Source: Okamejei kenojei (Eukaryota). Taken from it: 64,000 nt of DNA. The DNA lies in assembly GCA_035221665.1 (NCBI GenBank), contig CM069147.1:11036001-11100000 (forward strand), written 5' to 3'. Under the pieces are notes generated by a model. That model was not told the origin of the DNA. It searched no databases and saw only the letters and a program-made list of their open reading frames with translations. Shown here one piece after another: positions 15,166-37,274 of the stretch (positions are counted from its first letter, which is position 1; every line of letters begins with the position of its first letter). The position numbers and the translations under genes were made by a program.

Positions 15166-16684
15166 GGTTAAATGCAGTGAATAAAAGGGGACAAATTGAC
15201 ATTGTAGGAGTTAATGGGGGAGAAAAAAAGATGTGGGCAAGATCATATTCCTTTATGTGTGTGTGTGTGTGTGTGGGTGTACGTGTACGTGTGCTTGCTA
15301 AGCCAGAACATTTGTCTTGGATCCTCGTGGTTGGGCAAGGACTTTGCTTCATCAAGACCATCTGTAACAGCTGTTCAGTGGCCAATTCGCTTGCGTACAG
15401 ATCTCAGAACTGTAGTGCAAGTAAATCATGATCTTGAGGGGCTGCCTAACAAGGAAGAGACTTGTCAGATAAAAACAACTGAAGAATTTTGTCAAAATAC
15501 CATTCCAATATAAATGGCCTTTTGGATGAATAATTTGAAATAACTTTTTTTTGTTTTAAATGTAGTTAACTGTATACAACTTGAGACATTCTTAGTGATT
15601 GTAGTCTCAGTTATTTGGACCTCGGTTGATTTTTATCCTGTGGCGACCTTTGGTGTTAGCCCCTTCACTACAATTTTACTTGCGCATACACTGACCTTTG
15701 CCATAGAAACGCAAGAGAAACACAAACAGCTTGGCAATGATCCCATATAAAAGCAACGGGTGTCTGTACAAGTGTAGTGTTACATTAATGGTAGAGAAGG
15801 ATGCTTTGGAGGGAATAGGCCCAACCTCAGGCACTGCGTAATATCTTGGGCAATGTCAAAGTACCTTAATGATATTTAAGTGGTCAAAATAGGTTTTTAT
15901 TCAGTTCTTAATAAGGGAAAGTAATTTTTGCATTGTTTATAGGATGGTCTTTTGCTATTTCTGGCAAGTGCTGACAGAACAGATGACCAAAATAAAATGC
16001 CCTTAAATTAGATGATCAACATGTGTAATATTATACAGCAGTTTTATTTTAGTTTCTGTTTACTATCCCGGTAGAAAGGGCATGTGGTTGTTTTACTGAT
16101 CTGGACAGTATAAATGTCAGTATTTTAATATAACTCAGAATTCATATGCTTGAGTTGTGATGTGTAGCAGCTGGTTGACTGGGATTAGTTAGATTAAATA
16201 ACATTCAACCCTGTAGACATTGCATGCTTGATCAGAGCACGGTGTGTTTGATCCATACTTGTCACTGCAATTTGGCTTGCAATTGGCAAGATGATATAGT
16301 CTTCATATCCCTGGTTAGTTTGTGTTTTTAAAAAAAACTAGCTTTTAATCCCAATAATTTGAAAAGTATGCATCACTCTTCTTCCTGATTTTTGCCTTTT
16401 GTCCAGTGTTAAGCCTTTTGGCATCAGAACTCAGTCTGTTTGGTATTTTTATTTCTGACAGTATAGTCATCTGCTCATCAGTTCCTGAAACTGCTTTATA
16501 ATTTTAGTGACTGTTCATTTTAATTAAGTTATGTAATTAACGAATTATACAATTTTTGTTCAGTTGTCCTTAAAGCAAACGGTTAGCAGGCAGGTGCATG
16601 ATATGTTGGGTGGTGTGGGGGAGAGGGGGGGATGCAAATAGCACATTGAGTTAGAGTCTACAAATGGGGAAGTATTCTTACTGG

Positions 16685-17509
16685 GGTACACAAAAGGCTG
16701 GAGAAACTCAGCGGGTGCAGCAGCATCTAAGGAGCAAAGGAGATTAAGGTGACGTTTTGGGTCGAGACCCTTCTTCAGACTGGTTGGGGATCGGGGAAAC
16801 GAGAGATATAGACAGTCATGTGGAGAGATAAAGAACAATGAATGAAAGATATGCAAAAAAGTAACGATGATAAAGGAAACAGGCCATTGTAAGCTGTTTG
16901 TAGTGTGAAAATGAGAAGCTAGTGCGACTTGGGTGGGGGGGGGGAAGAGAGAGGGAGAATGCATGCATGCCAGGGGCTGAGGGAGAGGTGGGAAGGGGGG
17001 GAAGACAGCAAGGGTTAACAGAATTGAGAAAATTCAATGTTCAAGCAAAGAGGATGCAGACTCCCCAAGCGGAGTATGAGGTGCTGTACCTCCAACTTGT
17101 GGTGTTGCTCACTCTGGCCGTGGAGGAGGCCCAGGACCGAGATGTCCGATACAGAATGGGAGGGGGTGTTGAAGTGCTGAGCCACCGGGAGGTCGGGTTG
17201 GTTATTGCGGACCGAGCGAAGGTGTTTGGCGAAACGATCGCCAAGCCTCCGCTTGGTCTCACCGATATAGATCAGCTGGCATCTGGAGTAGCGGATGCCG
17301 TAGATGAGGTTGGAGGAGGTGCAGTTGAACCTCTGTCGGACCTGGAAGAACTGCATGGGTCCCTGAAAGGAGTGGAAGGGGGAGGTGAAGGGACAAGTAT
17401 AGCATCTCTTGCGGTTGCAAGGAAAGGTGCCCGGGGAAGGGGTGGAGCGGGAGGGAAGGGAAGAATTGACAAAGGAGTTGCAGAGGGAGCAGTCTTTGCG
17501 GAAGGCAGA

Positions 17510-17541
<32 letters not shown>

Positions 17542-18520
17542 CGGGGGGGGAGGAATGGGAAGATGTGGCGAGTGGAGGGGTCATGTTGGAGGTGGCGAAA
17601 CTGGCGGAGGGCTATGTGTTGTATTTGCCAGCTGGTGGGGTGAAAGGTGCGGACCAGGGGGACTCTGCCATTGTTGTGAGTGGGGGAATGGGGAGAGAGG
17701 GCAGTGTTGTGGGGTATGGAGGAGACCCTGGTGCGAGCCTCATCTATAGTGGAGGAGGGGAATTCCCGTTCTCTGAAGAATGAGGACATTTGTGATGACC
17801 TGGTGTGGAACACCTCATCCTGGGAGCAGATGCGGCGTAGACTGAGGAATTGGGAATAGGGGATGGAGTCCTTACAGGAAGCAGGGTGGGAGGAAGAGTA
17901 GTCCAGGTAGCCATGGGAGTCAGTTGGTTTGTAGTGGATGTCGGTCAGGAGTGTATCACCTGCAATAGAGATGGTGAGGTCAAGGAATGGTAGGAAAATG
18001 TCGGAAATGGTCCACGTGTATTTGAGTGCCGGATGGAAGTTGGTGGTGAAATGGATGAAGTCAGTCAGTTGTGTGTGGGTGCAGGAGGTGACTCCAAAGC
18101 AGTTGTCGAAATAATGGAGGTAGAGGTCGGGGATGGGGCCCTGGTACGCCGAGAACAAGGATTGTTCGACATACCCGACAAAGAGGCAAGCGTAGCTGGG
18201 GCCCATGCGTGTGTCCATAGCTATGCCTTGTGTTTGGAGGAAATGGGAGGAGTCAAAAGAGCAGTTATTGAGGGTAAGGACCAACTCCACTAGGCGGAGG
18301 AGGGTGTCAGTGGACGGGTATGGGTTGCTCCTCTGGTCGAGGAAGAACCGGAGGGCTTTGAGATCATCCTGGTGGGGGATGGAGGTGTAGAGAGACTGGA
18401 CGTCCATGGTGAAGAGGAGAGGATGGAGAATGGAATGCCCGGAGCCGACGGAGAGTGTCTGAGGTGTCTTGAACATAGGTGGGGAGGGATTTAACAAAGG
18501 GAGATAGGATGGGGTCAAGG
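16685..18520 (-). mobile_element. Penelope-like retroelement, 5'-truncated; RT + GIY-YIG pseudogene plus terminal repeat
   Basis: ORF 17259-18518 has MDVQSLYTSIPH, QGIAMDTRMGPSYA, YFDN (decayed YxDD) and FLDL...YKPTD. ORF 17015-17584 has CNRKRCYTC and NLIYGIRYSRCQLIYIGET.R (GIY-YIG). The terminal repeat has a hammerhead-like motif at about 16750-16783. Confidence 0.93.
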
Positions 18521-18784
18521 TATGTGGCTCACATGACTCCAGCCCAATTAATCCCCCTTTGCTGATTCATGACAAGAAACTAAACTGAACTGATTTGATT
18601 CACCACTTGCCAGCACTTGCACCCCCCACCCCCTCTCCACCCTTTCTCGCCTCCACCTACTGGCTATTTCCCCTCTACTTTTCCAGTCCAGATGAAAGAT
18701 CTTGATCCAAAATATTGAGTATTTCTCTCCAATAGAGTTGTCTGGCTGACGGAGTTCCTCCAGCAGCTTGTTTTACTGCTGTTT

Positions 18785-26241: not shown

Positions 26242-27226
26242 GTTAGTATGAAATTTATTTCCATCCATTTTTTTTCTGTATAGTTTTTCTTCATAATTTC
26301 AGATATTATTGTGTTGGCAATCTGCTTTGTTTGGATGGACCTCACTGTATAGATTGTGTGCCTTCTGCAACATAATGAGCATGTTGGAGATGAGCTTTAG
26401 GAGAAATGTTTCCTTCATTTGACTTCAACCCCTGATTTCCCCGCCTTGAAATGTACCAATTTACTGATGAACACTCGTCAAAATGAGTTCATAAATATAA
26501 TTACCATACCAAACAATTGCCATATAGTAAGAAGAAAGTAGAAAAGTAGGCTGGCCTTTTAACGTCAAATAGCTGGGATTTAGGACTCATTACATGGAGC
26601 ATTGTGAAGTGAATCCGAACAACATTATCTTGGCCACTGCATCTAGATACTCTATAGCTGGGTGGGTATTTCTGCTAATTTCTTTTGAGTATGAAATGCA
26701 ACTATTAACACGCAAGCAATATCACAAACTTAATGCAACTGCTGTTTATTGTGGGTTTGAACATGAACTTACTGCCTCTAATTAGACATTTCGAGTGCTT
26801 CTCGTGCTTGATAATTAGTGAAAATAAATTCACTAAGAAGCACTGTCACATCTTTCAGATGAGTTCAGTAATGATTGAATTTGTTTCTTCTATCAAGTAG
26901 CATTCTAAAACCTGCTAAAGTTGTTTCCTTCTGATTGGATTTGCTTTAAATGAGCATATTATAACCGTGAACATTTTCCTGTCATCTTAATTGCCAATAA
27001 ATATCAACAGGATTTCATGAGATATTTGCATGCAAGCTTTTTTAATTCTTGAAGAGCGCATGATTATTAAGGCTGGAAAAATAAGTTGAAGCTGATTTCT
27101 GTGTACATATAAAAAAATCTGTGTACTTAATTTTTTTTGAAATTATGTAAGAATTGATGCCTTAAATTCAATATTATTTCCGTATTCAGTATATGTTTGG
27201 TAATTTCAATAATCTGATTAAAACAG

Positions 27227-27367
27227 CCCAACGATCTGCCCAGGAACTCCCTCAGATTGAAAAGTACAGCATCAATTCATGTTCCGTCACTGGTGGAGAA
27301 GAAATGATTGTCAATGGTTTCAATTTTCTTCCGGAGTCTAAGGTTATCTTCCTTGAAAAGGGCCCAG
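27227..27367 (+). CDS. NFATC3: NFATC3 coding exon (probably exon 6), start of IPT domain
   Basis: aaacag|cc acceptor, cag|gtatgt donor, 141 bp, phase 1 to 1. Encodes (S)[26 protein letters not shown]...[11 protein letters not shown]. Confidence 0.97.
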
Positions 27368-29975: not shown

Positions 29976-30884
29976 GTGTCACATAAGGCACAATAAGGAT
30001 CTATTGATACGTTGATCAGGGGAGAAACTGGTATAGTGCGTGCCAGCATATGCAGCCGCAATTAAACTATTGACTTGGAGTCATAGCACGCCTCTGACTC
30101 CTATTAACTGCAGTCCATATTTGACAAGTTGCGAAGCAGAATTAAACATGTCCAGTGACGTGGACTTTACTTTAACAAAACGTGGACCACAAAAACTTGA
30201 GTACCATAAAAGTGCAACTAACTTTCTAATGCACTCTATTGTCTGGCTTAAGAATGACTTCAGTTATTCACATTTCATACGGTCAGGTTGGATAGGAGAG
30301 AAGCAGAAGTCAAGAATTAAAGAATGTTGGGCAAAAGCGTTTCAATGCCATAACACATGTAGTGAGTTGTTGGGGTGGGATGAAGGAGTAGTAAGAGATG
30401 TTAGAGTGAGTTTCAATATGCATGAATATTCATAAACTGACAACATTGCCTGCTGCTATATATCCCTGTTGCACTAAAATTGTGGGATTCCAAAAAAAAG
30501 TGATTTCTAATTATCACGAGCATACATTGAAAATGGGTCTAATTAATGGTCACTTCCATGGGCCCAAGGACCTGTTTCCGTGCTACATGGCTAATTGTCA
30601 TATGTACCCGATAACGGAACAGTGAAATTCTTACTTGGTGCAGGTTTTCATTACTGTTAATGCAATAACACGTAGATAATAATATAATATGTAATGATCG
30701 TTACACAATAAATAAATAACCTTCAAACTAGGTAAGCATATTATGTAAAACCAAAGTCCACAGTGCAACAAAGACACAGTCCATAGAACCAGTTACTGAG
30801 TTTAGTGTGTAATGGTTTGTAAGTAGCTATTCTTGAACCTGGTGGTCATGGTTTTCAGGCTCCTGTACCAACTTCTCAATGTTA

Positions 30885-31019
30885 CATCACCGTCTATATC
30901 TCTCGTTTCCCTGATCCCTGACCAGTCTGAAGAAGGGTCTCGACCCGAAACGTCGCCTATCTCCTTCGCTCCTTAGATGCTGCTGCACCCGCTGAGTTTC
31001 TCCAGCTTTTTGTGTACCC
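30885..31019 (+). mobile_element. 135-bp solo Penelope terminal repeat with 11-bp TSD
   Basis: tctcaatgtta at 30874-30884 and 31020-31030; the insert is nearly identical to the reverse complement of 16685-16818. Confidence 0.9.
30925..30956 (+). ncRNA. Minimal type I hammerhead ribozyme motif (PLE-associated)
   Basis: CTGAAGA (30927-33), extra A, stem II GGGT-ctcg-ACCC, GAAA (30947-50), CG, TC. Palindromic ACGT takes the place of stem III; stem I is only about 2 bp. Confidence 0.7.
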
Positions 31020-31444
31020 TCTCAATGTTAGTAATGGAATGAATGGGTGCTGTGGGTCTTTGATATTGGCTGCCTTTTTGAGGCAGCGCCTCCTATAGAC
31101 TCCTTTGTTTATTGCCGTCTGCAATCACAAAATAGAATCTTGCGCTAAGTGTAATCTTGCGCCTTGAATTGGGTGTTATGTTCCCATGAATATTGACCAT
31201 GTCATACCATTGTTTCTTAAATTTAAAAAAATCACTTTTTGGTCATTAAAAAATCTATCAATCATGTCCCATTTTAACACGGTTAACTTTTAACATTGGT
31301 CTTTTTTTTTTCCTTTGCTTTTTTGGGGTAAAATAACCCCAATCTAAATAATGGAATACTTGTGGATAAGTGCTGCAGTGTCACACCTCACAGCATTAGA
31401 ATGGCTTCACTGAACTCGGTGTAAAACCTGACTCCTGTATTAAG

Positions 31445-33698: not shown

Positions 33699-34096
33699 AT
33701 GTGAGTGACCCATTGCCTCAAGGCCACTTTATTAACTGATTTCCTTGTCGGCAATCCACAAAATTATCCAACTCTAGTCTTGAATATGTCCATCAACTGC
33801 TCATCCAGTGTTCCTTACATTGCACCTCATCTTGTTTTCCACGTGCACTTTTCCATCTTCAATATTAGCTTCACACTAAATGGAGATGTTCGGTCGTTGG
33901 GTTCATACAGATGCACCTGCACTTTCTCATCTTGCCCAAATACATATGTACACAGTTTCACATCCTGCTCCCCTCGCATGCACACAGATTTGGTGAAGTT
34001 TCCATGGATGCTCAGTATTGCAAGTCTTTATCAGTTGCATAGATGCAGTGTTATTTGGTTAGAGGTAAAGTTGATTATTTGTATGTGTTCCCTCAG

Positions 34097-34152
34097 ATGG
34101 ACGTCCTCAGTGGGAGGTCGAAGGCAAAATTCTCAGGGAGAAATTTCAAGGG
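34097..34152 (+). CDS. NFATC3: NFATC3 small coding exon (probably exon 7), absent from the ORF track
   Basis: ttccctcag|at acceptor, ggg|gtaaga donor, 56 bp, phase 1 to 0. Encodes (D)GRPQWEVEGKILREKFQG. Confidence 0.96.
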
Positions 34153-34781
34153 GTAAGATATATAATTTTCTATTTAAATAGTATTTTCAAAATATATGTC
34201 TCTTGTCCCTCAGGAGATTTTACTACAGTTTGAATTGTTTACCCAAATAGCTAAATGTGTGAACACTGAGGCTCAAAGCAGATTTTGATTGTACTAATTT
34301 CAATAAACTAAATTCATTTGGAACTTGAATCTTTCATTAAAATTGATTATTTTGATTGCTGTAAGACTTTAATCCTGTTCATTATCTTAAGAGCTGAGGG
34401 AATTGATTATGATGTCAAATGTTGACTTTAATTTCAACAGGTTTTCAGTTTTTTTAATTGCTAGCAAATTATAGTCATTGTTATAGCTCGAATATTTTGT
34501 GACGTGGATAAAGCTTATTTTTGCATACAAATTCTGAATGTTCCAAACATAAATTTGACGATTTGGTGCTTTTCTCATTATTTTAAAATTATAGGTTCAG
34601 TTTTATTCTTACTCTGCCCACCTCCAAAACTTATTCCACGAACTGTTCTTATAGTTTTTTAAATTTATTTTTTGGTGTAATATGCATAAAGCCCCTTGAT
34701 GATGGATGGAATGTACTATTTTATTCAAGCCTAAGTAATGGATTGTTCTTGAACTTATTCTTCAAAGTTATTTTGTTTCAG

Positions 34782-37107: not shown

Positions 37108-37274
37108 GAAGCAAAGAACTGCGGGTGCTGGTTAATACACAAAAGGGCACAAAGTGCTGGAGCAACTCAGCAGGCCAGGCCGCATCTCTGGAGAACATGT
37201 ACAAATTGCTGGAATAATGTTCTCCACAGATGCTGTCTGACCTGCTGAGTTTTTCCAGCACTTTGTGTCCTTTT
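37108..37274. mobile_element. Palindromic (inverted) pair of Penelope terminal repeats
   Basis: Arms 37141-37198 and 37217-37274 are near-perfect reverse complements. Confidence 0.85.

What the first reader, a model, noticed from the sequence alone, without database searches (positions are those of the whole stretch)
30874..31030. 135-bp solo insertion carrying an intact minimal hammerhead ribozyme core, sense to the NFATC3 pre-mRNA
Seen: an exact 11-bp TSD flanks a unit containing CTGAAGA-A-GGGT(ctcg)ACCC-GAAA-CG-TC. The unit ends at tgtgtaccc, the same point as the long Penelope copy at 16685, which suggests a preferred terminus. Established: Penelope-like elements carry minimal type I hammerheads lacking a stable stem III, proposed to cleave as dimers through a palindromic loop (here ACGT); non-autonomous hammerhead retroelements (retrozymes) are known in other taxa. 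Inference: either an extreme 5' truncation or a self-contained ribozyme mini-retroposon mobilised by the PLE. Predicted cleavage is after C30954. Stem I is only about 2 bp, so monomer activity is doubtful.
Basis: partly seen in the sequence, partly recalled or inferred. Interest (0 to 1): 0.7.

Follow-up and report, generated by a model that had tools for sequence, protein, structure and literature searches.

The report
Clipped Penelope retrotransposon end with hammerhead
This 135-base insertion in a cartilaginous-fish gene intron is the clipped end of a very common Penelope-type jumping gene, and the stripped-down self-cutting RNA motif it carries, already known from this class, is likely an idle passenger rather than the core of a separate mini-element.

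Summary
Observation confirmed: 11-bp target-site duplication, 135-bp insert, intact minimal type I hammerhead with a 2-bp stem I, sense strand of an NFATC3 intron. The insert is identical (135/135) to the terminal repeat of an intact Penelope-like element with a 1197-codon RT + GIY-YIG frame; its 3' 31-mer occurs 59,546 times. Its 5' end is not a family boundary: only 164 of 15,350 copies differ at the next upstream base, and 19 of 30 of those checked are substitutions. The shared 3' end is the shorter of two known Penelope termini (tail / no tail). None of 100 sampled copies starts at the predicted cut, so templates were likely uncut. Verdict: ordinary 5' truncation, not a mini-retrozyme. Side result: family 5' ends are not random; 48 of 100 start within 7 bases of the hammerhead's first base (this copy does not), probably where the RNA begins. 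Earlier scan notes report that pile-up on other DNA of this genome. Weak new lead: splice-like sites bound a 162-nt hammerhead segment, and two insertions carry exactly that junction, but template switching explains them as well.

The parts
30874..30884 (+). left target-site duplication (last A could also be element-derived)
   Evidence: family duplications 9-16 bp in 29 of 54 flank-joined copies
30885..31019 (+). 5'-truncated terminal repeat (pLTR) of a Penelope-like element, positions -42 to +92 counted from hammerhead C3
   Evidence: 135/135 identical to the terminal repeat of full-length copy L171
30925..30956 (+). minimal type I hammerhead: 2-bp stem I, CTGAAGA, extra A, 4-bp stem II, GAAA, palindromic ACGT without loop III; cut predicted after 30954
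   Evidence: architecture as in PMC4209133
30920..30934 (+). zone (-7 to +7) where about half of the family's copies begin; this copy reads through it; holds CAG|TCTGA, which fits both an initiator-like and an acceptor-like motif (consensus recalled)
31020..31030 (+). right target-site duplication
16684..18527 (-). longer 5'-truncated copy of the same family (RT thumb to GIY-YIG, frameshifted; hammerhead G12>A), 91% to L171
52855..52974 (-). third, short copy beginning at the hammerhead edge (core damaged) and ending with the tail
27217..27366 (+). NFATC3 coding exon upstream of the host intron (approximate bounds)
34096..34167 (+). NFATC3 coding exon downstream of the host intron (approximate bounds)

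Best explanation
The 135 bp are an exact copy of the terminal repeat of an intact, high-copy Penelope-like element, likely made when the element's reverse transcriptase copied an uncut RNA and stopped by chance after 135 bases, so the hammerhead is likely a passenger. Shown: identity to the end of a full-length element, target-site duplication, two family 3' termini, background break rate at this 5' end, no copies starting at the cut site. Inferred from PMC11167929: the GIY-YIG domain nicked the target and copying began at the internal start site at about +92. Inferred: the template had sequence upstream of the hammerhead (a read-through or tandem transcript), unlike the roughly half of copies that stop at the hammerhead edge, probably at the RNA's 5' end. 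Inferred: as a lone minimal motif it cleaves NFATC3 pre-mRNA little or not at all.
For: 135/135 identity to L171, which has two repeats 3955 bp apart around a 1197-codon frame. 164 versus 15,186 genome-wide matches without and with the next upstream element base. Of 30 of the 164 examined: 19 substitutions in longer copies, 4 internal deletions, 2 inversions, 5 joins to unrelated DNA (sorted by eye), so about 0.4% breaks per base against a background of 0.26-0.42%. 3' ends: 60 of 100 at +87..+101, 36 of 100 at +123..+134. 0 of 100 5' ends at +26..+30, in line with uncut RNA as the main substrate in PMC11167929. Predicted fold no more stable than shuffles (z +0.55); stem I probability 0.0 and stem II about 0.03 in context. 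No second intact motif in the window.
Against: Family 5' ends are strongly non-random: 48 of 100 in -7..+7, and exact matches fall 39% over -3..-7 but 6% over -8..-12, so 'ordinary truncation' does not describe the whole family. A short genomic copy could be transcribed and copied again; sequence cannot exclude that for this one. The anole PLE hammerhead cleaves with protein help (PMC11167929), so folding predictions may understate activity. An antisense template was proposed for PLEs (PMC3846280, passage). No cleavage or RNA-end data were obtained.
Confidence: 0.92

Rival explanations
1. The 135-bp unit is a self-contained hammerhead mini-retroposon (retrozyme monomer) with its own lineage, mobilised by the PLE through a cut or circular RNA.
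For: Clean duplication and intact core; retrozyme families derive from PLE repeats and have solo monomers (bioRxiv 10.64898/2026.07.22.740005); 5 of 30 examined loci break into unrelated DNA at this same base.
Against: Break rate here equals background; no private changes against the autonomous element; single copy, not a tandem array; ends are 69 and 65 bases from the cut site rather than at it; no stable fold.
Confidence: 0.03
2. Family level: the pile-up at the hammerhead edge marks a transcription start, and reverse transcription begun at +92 or +126 runs off that 5' end, giving 95-135-bp solo copies. This explains the common short class but not this copy, which starts 35-40 bases further up.
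For: 48 of 100 copies, about 4.3% breaks per base against 0.3-0.4% on either side; genome-wide step; the frame starts about 160 bases downstream; D. virilis Penelope has an internal TATA-less promoter in its repeat (PMC2377424, section 15); shortening the template's 5' end shortens the product (PMC11167929).
Against: Ends are spread over about 12 bases; a cap-derived extra G was not significant (12 of 28, p 0.12); 21 of the 48 are arms of inverted insertions, where pairing could set the end; an RT stall at a protein-bound or folded site fits too; contigs cannot show starts.
Confidence: 0.55
3. The segment from -1 to +160 is an exon: splicing out the whole frame, or back-splicing, would give a tandem or circular 162-nt hammerhead RNA that is occasionally copied into the genome.
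For: CAG| just before the core and AAG|GTATG at the frame start. The predicted junction exists in 3 matches from 2 insertions of sister lineages; in one, both arms of an inverted pair carry it. In D. virilis an intron ends at the 5' end of helix I (PMC4209133).
Against: Only 3 matches against 21,868 hammerhead 40-mers. Of 35 matches to a gapped pattern, 4 were element-to-element joints: 2 exact, 1 off by one base and 1 off by about 8; the off-by-one locus is a mosaic of several template jumps. Two-base microhomology favours the exact joint anyway. The acceptor region is no richer in pyrimidines than the rest of the UTR (75% vs 73-78%).
Confidence: 0.1

Closest known systems
Minimal type I hammerheads in the pseudo-LTRs of metazoan Penelope-like elements (Cervera and De la Pena 2014, PMC4209133; parts 1-2 of 4 read, no supplements)
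   Same: Conserved core, extra base between 9 and 10.1, G10.1-C11.1 pair, palindromic 15.2-16.2, no helix III, thousands of dispersed single motifs ascribed to truncated PLEs; monomers inactive in their test.
   Different: Shorter helices here (4-bp stem II, 2-bp stem I, the latter as in D. virilis); cartilaginous fish are not named in the parts read (supplementary lists not seen).
Endonuclease-bearing PLEs with a CX2-5CxxC linker (Neptune or Nematis; PMC8557442, passages) and the anole Poseidon element (PMC11167929, parts 1-2 of 4)
   Same: Partial tandem with direct repeats, RT plus C-terminal GIY-YIG, frequent 5' truncation, inverted 5' arms, optional 30-40-bp tail, uncut RNA as template.
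   Different: Frame starts about 160 bases past the hammerhead, not inside it; about half of the copies stop at the hammerhead edge, which I did not find described in the papers read or in searches.
Animal non-LTR retrozymes (PMC7761336, passages; bioRxiv 10.64898/2026.07.22.740005, parts 1-3 of 5, supplements closed)
   Same: Short, non-coding, type I hammerhead, related to PLE repeats.
   Different: Retrozymes are tandem units of about 150-300 nt that give stable circular RNAs; this is a single insertion, identical to the autonomous element's end, with no fixed unit length and no stable fold.

Membership tests
Endonuclease-bearing Penelope-like element (truncated copy) | Parent encodes RT with a C-terminal GIY-YIG domain in one frame | tested here: met
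   1197-codon frame in L171; on related copy L076, Pfam GIY-YIG E 7e-4 and RVT_1 E 0.075, both under the curated cut-off; motifs read by eye
Endonuclease-bearing Penelope-like element (truncated copy) | Partial tandem forming direct pseudo-LTRs | tested here: met
   6 loci with repeats 3953-3957 bp apart, among 20 fetched for long frames
Endonuclease-bearing Penelope-like element (truncated copy) | Optional 30-40-bp tail, inverted 5' arms, target-site duplication | tested here: met
   36 of 100 tailed, 33 of 100 with inverted upstream sequence, duplications of 9-16 bp
Neptune or Nematis clade | CX2-5CxxC linker between RT and endonuclease; clade by RT tree | tested here: inconclusive
   CNRKKCNTC is present; no tree was built
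Minimal type I hammerhead (PLE type) | Core bases, extra base after 9, G-C closing stem II, palindromic 15.2-16.2 | tested here: met
Minimal type I hammerhead (PLE type) | Covariation in stem II | tested here: inconclusive
   128 family-like motifs: pairs mostly unchanged or changed on one side (T-A to T-G in 20); no clear two-sided change
Minimal type I hammerhead (PLE type) | Self-cleavage as a dimer or with protein help | not testable with these tools
   needs a cleavage assay
Non-LTR retrozyme | Tandem units each with a hammerhead | tested here: not met
   single motif in the window
Non-LTR retrozyme | Discrete unit with its own lineage | tested here: not met
   background break rate at the 5' end; identical to the autonomous end
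Non-LTR retrozyme | Abundant, highly paired circular RNA | not testable with these tools
   predicted fold z +0.55; only contigs were on offer

The most novel reading that the evidence does not exclude
The family's repeat is a 162-nt exon bounded by an acceptor at the hammerhead's first base and a donor that overlaps the start codon. Removing the whole coding frame as an intron, or back-splicing, brings two minimal hammerheads together or makes a small ribozyme circle: a spliceosome-made switch between coding and ribozyme-active RNA, and a direct route from Penelope elements to retrozymes.
Probability: 0.1. Interest if true: 0.7.

Novelty: new member of a known kind. Interest (0 to 1): 0.2.

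Why it matters
The insertion itself matters little: it is one young copy among tens of thousands. The family is a useful test bed for an open question, what Penelope hammerheads do. Intact 1197-codon elements exist, the copies show that templates were likely uncut, and half of them stop at the hammerhead edge, which predicts where the RNA starts. If the splice-junction lead held, it would explain how motifs 4 kb apart form an active dimer.

Tried and rejected
Rfam scan: nothing. DNA similarity search of the own genome returned nothing because common words are skipped. PDB search of the NFATC3 exon: nothing. Pfam found no family for the window's RT fragment. A first reference copy had a 10-bp deletion that faked a pile-up at -385; redone on L171. 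Footprint of hammerhead cleavage at +28: 0 of 100 at +26..+30, and 2 of 161 in the looser set, both next to element-derived sequence. Cap-derived extra G: not significant. A downstream promoter element as in PMC2377424: 5 of 8 letters and wrong spacing by eye, dropped. A shared upstream exon in edge-starting copies: none seen by eye. Public runs were contigs only, most with RNA status guessed; the predicted junction was not among the joints shown, but the lists were cut and contigs drop rare forms, so this says nothing either way. A target-site duplication for the long window copy was not found. Orientation bias within genes was not tested.

Full report
Observation. Stem I has two pairs. The motif is the only descriptor hit in the window; 20 shuffles gave 3 hits in all. 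Rfam has no match. The exon at 39851-40597 matches NFATC3 of cartilaginous fish, and mapping those proteins places the insert in an intron on the sense strand. Positions below are counted from hammerhead C3 (30927 = 0), so the insert spans -42 to +92.

What it belongs to. The window holds two more copies. In the 2.76-Gb genome the hammerhead 40-mer occurs 21,868 times and a 3' 31-mer 59,546 times. A protein search found long open frames; of 20 such loci fetched, six have two repeats 3953-3957 bp apart around the coding region, and two of these keep a 1197-codon frame. [quoted passage not shown] By PMC8557442 (passages) the linker points to Neptune or Nematis; I built no tree. The insert is identical at all 135 positions to the terminal repeat of L171, so it is young and comes from the autonomous lineage.

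Is 135 bp a unit? No. Among exact matches to the 33 bases that start at -43, 15,186 continue with the element's next base and 164 do not. I examined 30 of the 164: 19 are substitutions in longer copies, 4 internal deletions, 2 inversions and 5 joins to unrelated DNA (sorted by eye; one reassigned). That is about 0.4% breaks per base, equal to the 0.26-0.42% background upstream of the hammerhead. In the first 100 listed copies of a 3' 51-mer (all 100 recovered), 2 start between -50 and -36, and those two share one duplication, so they are one event.

The shared 3' end. 60 of the 100 copies end at +87..+101, 36 at +123..+134 and 4 elsewhere. In full-length elements the extra stretch of about 34 bases is the sequence that runs on towards the start codon. 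This is the Penelope tail. PMC11167929 (parts 1-2 of 4) shows in vitro that it lies between two internal reverse-transcription start sites, that hammerhead mutants insert normally and that uncut RNA is the main substrate. In agreement, 0 of 100 copies start at +26..+30, where a cut RNA would begin.

Ribozyme activity. Untested here. PMC4209133 (parts 1-2 of 4) describes this minimal type in PLE repeats, thousands of dispersed single motifs, no cleavage of a monomer and low cleavage of dimers. Folding gives stem I probability 0.0 and stem II about 0.03 in context, and the insert folds no better than shuffles. There is no second intact motif in the window; the nearest sense one in about 90 kb of neighbouring DNA lies some 56 kb upstream. 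Against idleness, the anole motif cleaves when the element's protein is present. Covariation across 128 motifs was uninformative.

A real family feature that this copy lacks. Earlier scan notes said that many copies begin at the hammerhead edge. I checked this. 48 of 100 copies start between -7 and +7, about 4.3% per base against 0.3-0.4% on either side; 79 of 161 do so in a looser set. Caveats: both arms of inverted insertions are counted, 21 of the 48 are such arms, one is a long copy of a sister lineage, and the sample comes from the first 17 Mb of one contig. Genome-wide, extending the exact pattern from -2 to -7 loses 39% of matches (21,868 to 13,276) and the next five bases lose 6% (12,441). 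The likeliest cause is that the RNA begins there and the RT runs off its end (about 55%); D. virilis Penelope has an internal promoter in its repeat (PMC2377424, section 15 and passages). A cap-derived G was not significant, so an RT stall stays open. This copy starts 35-40 bases further up, so its template likely was a read-through or tandem transcript.

A weak lead. CAG| precedes the core and AAG|GTATG overlaps the start codon at +160 (splice consensus recalled). I predicted the joint and found it in 3 matches from 2 insertions of sister lineages; allowing 2 mismatches added none. A gapped control gave 35 matches, of which 30 were read: 4 were element-to-element joints, 2 exact and 2 not, and one of the latter lies in a mosaic of template jumps. 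Two-base microhomology would favour the exact joint without splicing. Public runs were contigs and gave no verdict. I put this at 10%.

Comparison. It works like any 5'-truncated PLE insertion and meets the tested features of that class. It fails the retrozyme features tested: tandem units and a discrete lineage (PMC7761336, passages; bioRxiv 10.64898/2026.07.22.740005, parts 1-3 of 5, which also notes that most PLE insertions are truncated to a single repeat). Searches found no paper describing this family or the edge pile-up; I read no supplements, and those of PMC4209133 and the preprint may list cartilaginous-fish motifs. PMC6155905 and PMC3846280 were seen as passages only.

Verdict. Real, correctly described, and ordinary in kind: new member of a known kind, interest 0.2.

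Noticed in passing
L100, L102, L103, L107, L112, L115, L117, L118, L121, L127, L129 (G000:C1, 1.95-3.9 Mb): Dispersed 54-bp tandem arrays made from a sister-lineage repeat piece downstream of the hammerhead; the unit lacks the ribozyme.
   Followed up: no
L191 about 1400-1610; L192/L193 (L193 about 1130-1610): Insertions in which +160 is joined exactly to -1, as splicing or back-splicing would give; both arms of one inverted pair carry it.
   Followed up: partly
L262:1360-1800: One TSD-flanked insertion built of several short element pieces, two starting at the hammerhead edge: repeated template jumping.
   Followed up: partly
L171, L172 (G000:C16 near 30.99 Mb; C6 near 42.88 Mb): Apparently intact elements with a 1197-codon frame that includes a long proline-rich N-terminal part; the family looks recently active.
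   Followed up: partly
window 37135-37274: Head-to-head inverted pair of older sister-family repeat ends (self-match); about eight further sister-family fragments lie in the window.
   Followed up: no
window 30901-30925: The sense insertion brings a pyrimidine run plus CAG into the NFATC3 intron, a possible cryptic acceptor; no RNA evidence.
   Followed up: no
runs X5 and X20 laid on L171:3780-3845: Very deep contigs cover +130 to +190, one rejoining a hammerhead start, hinting at a tandem hammerhead repeat in those samples.
   Followed up: no
L204 and L205: The same insertion and duplication 84 kb apart: a segmental duplication.
   Followed up: no
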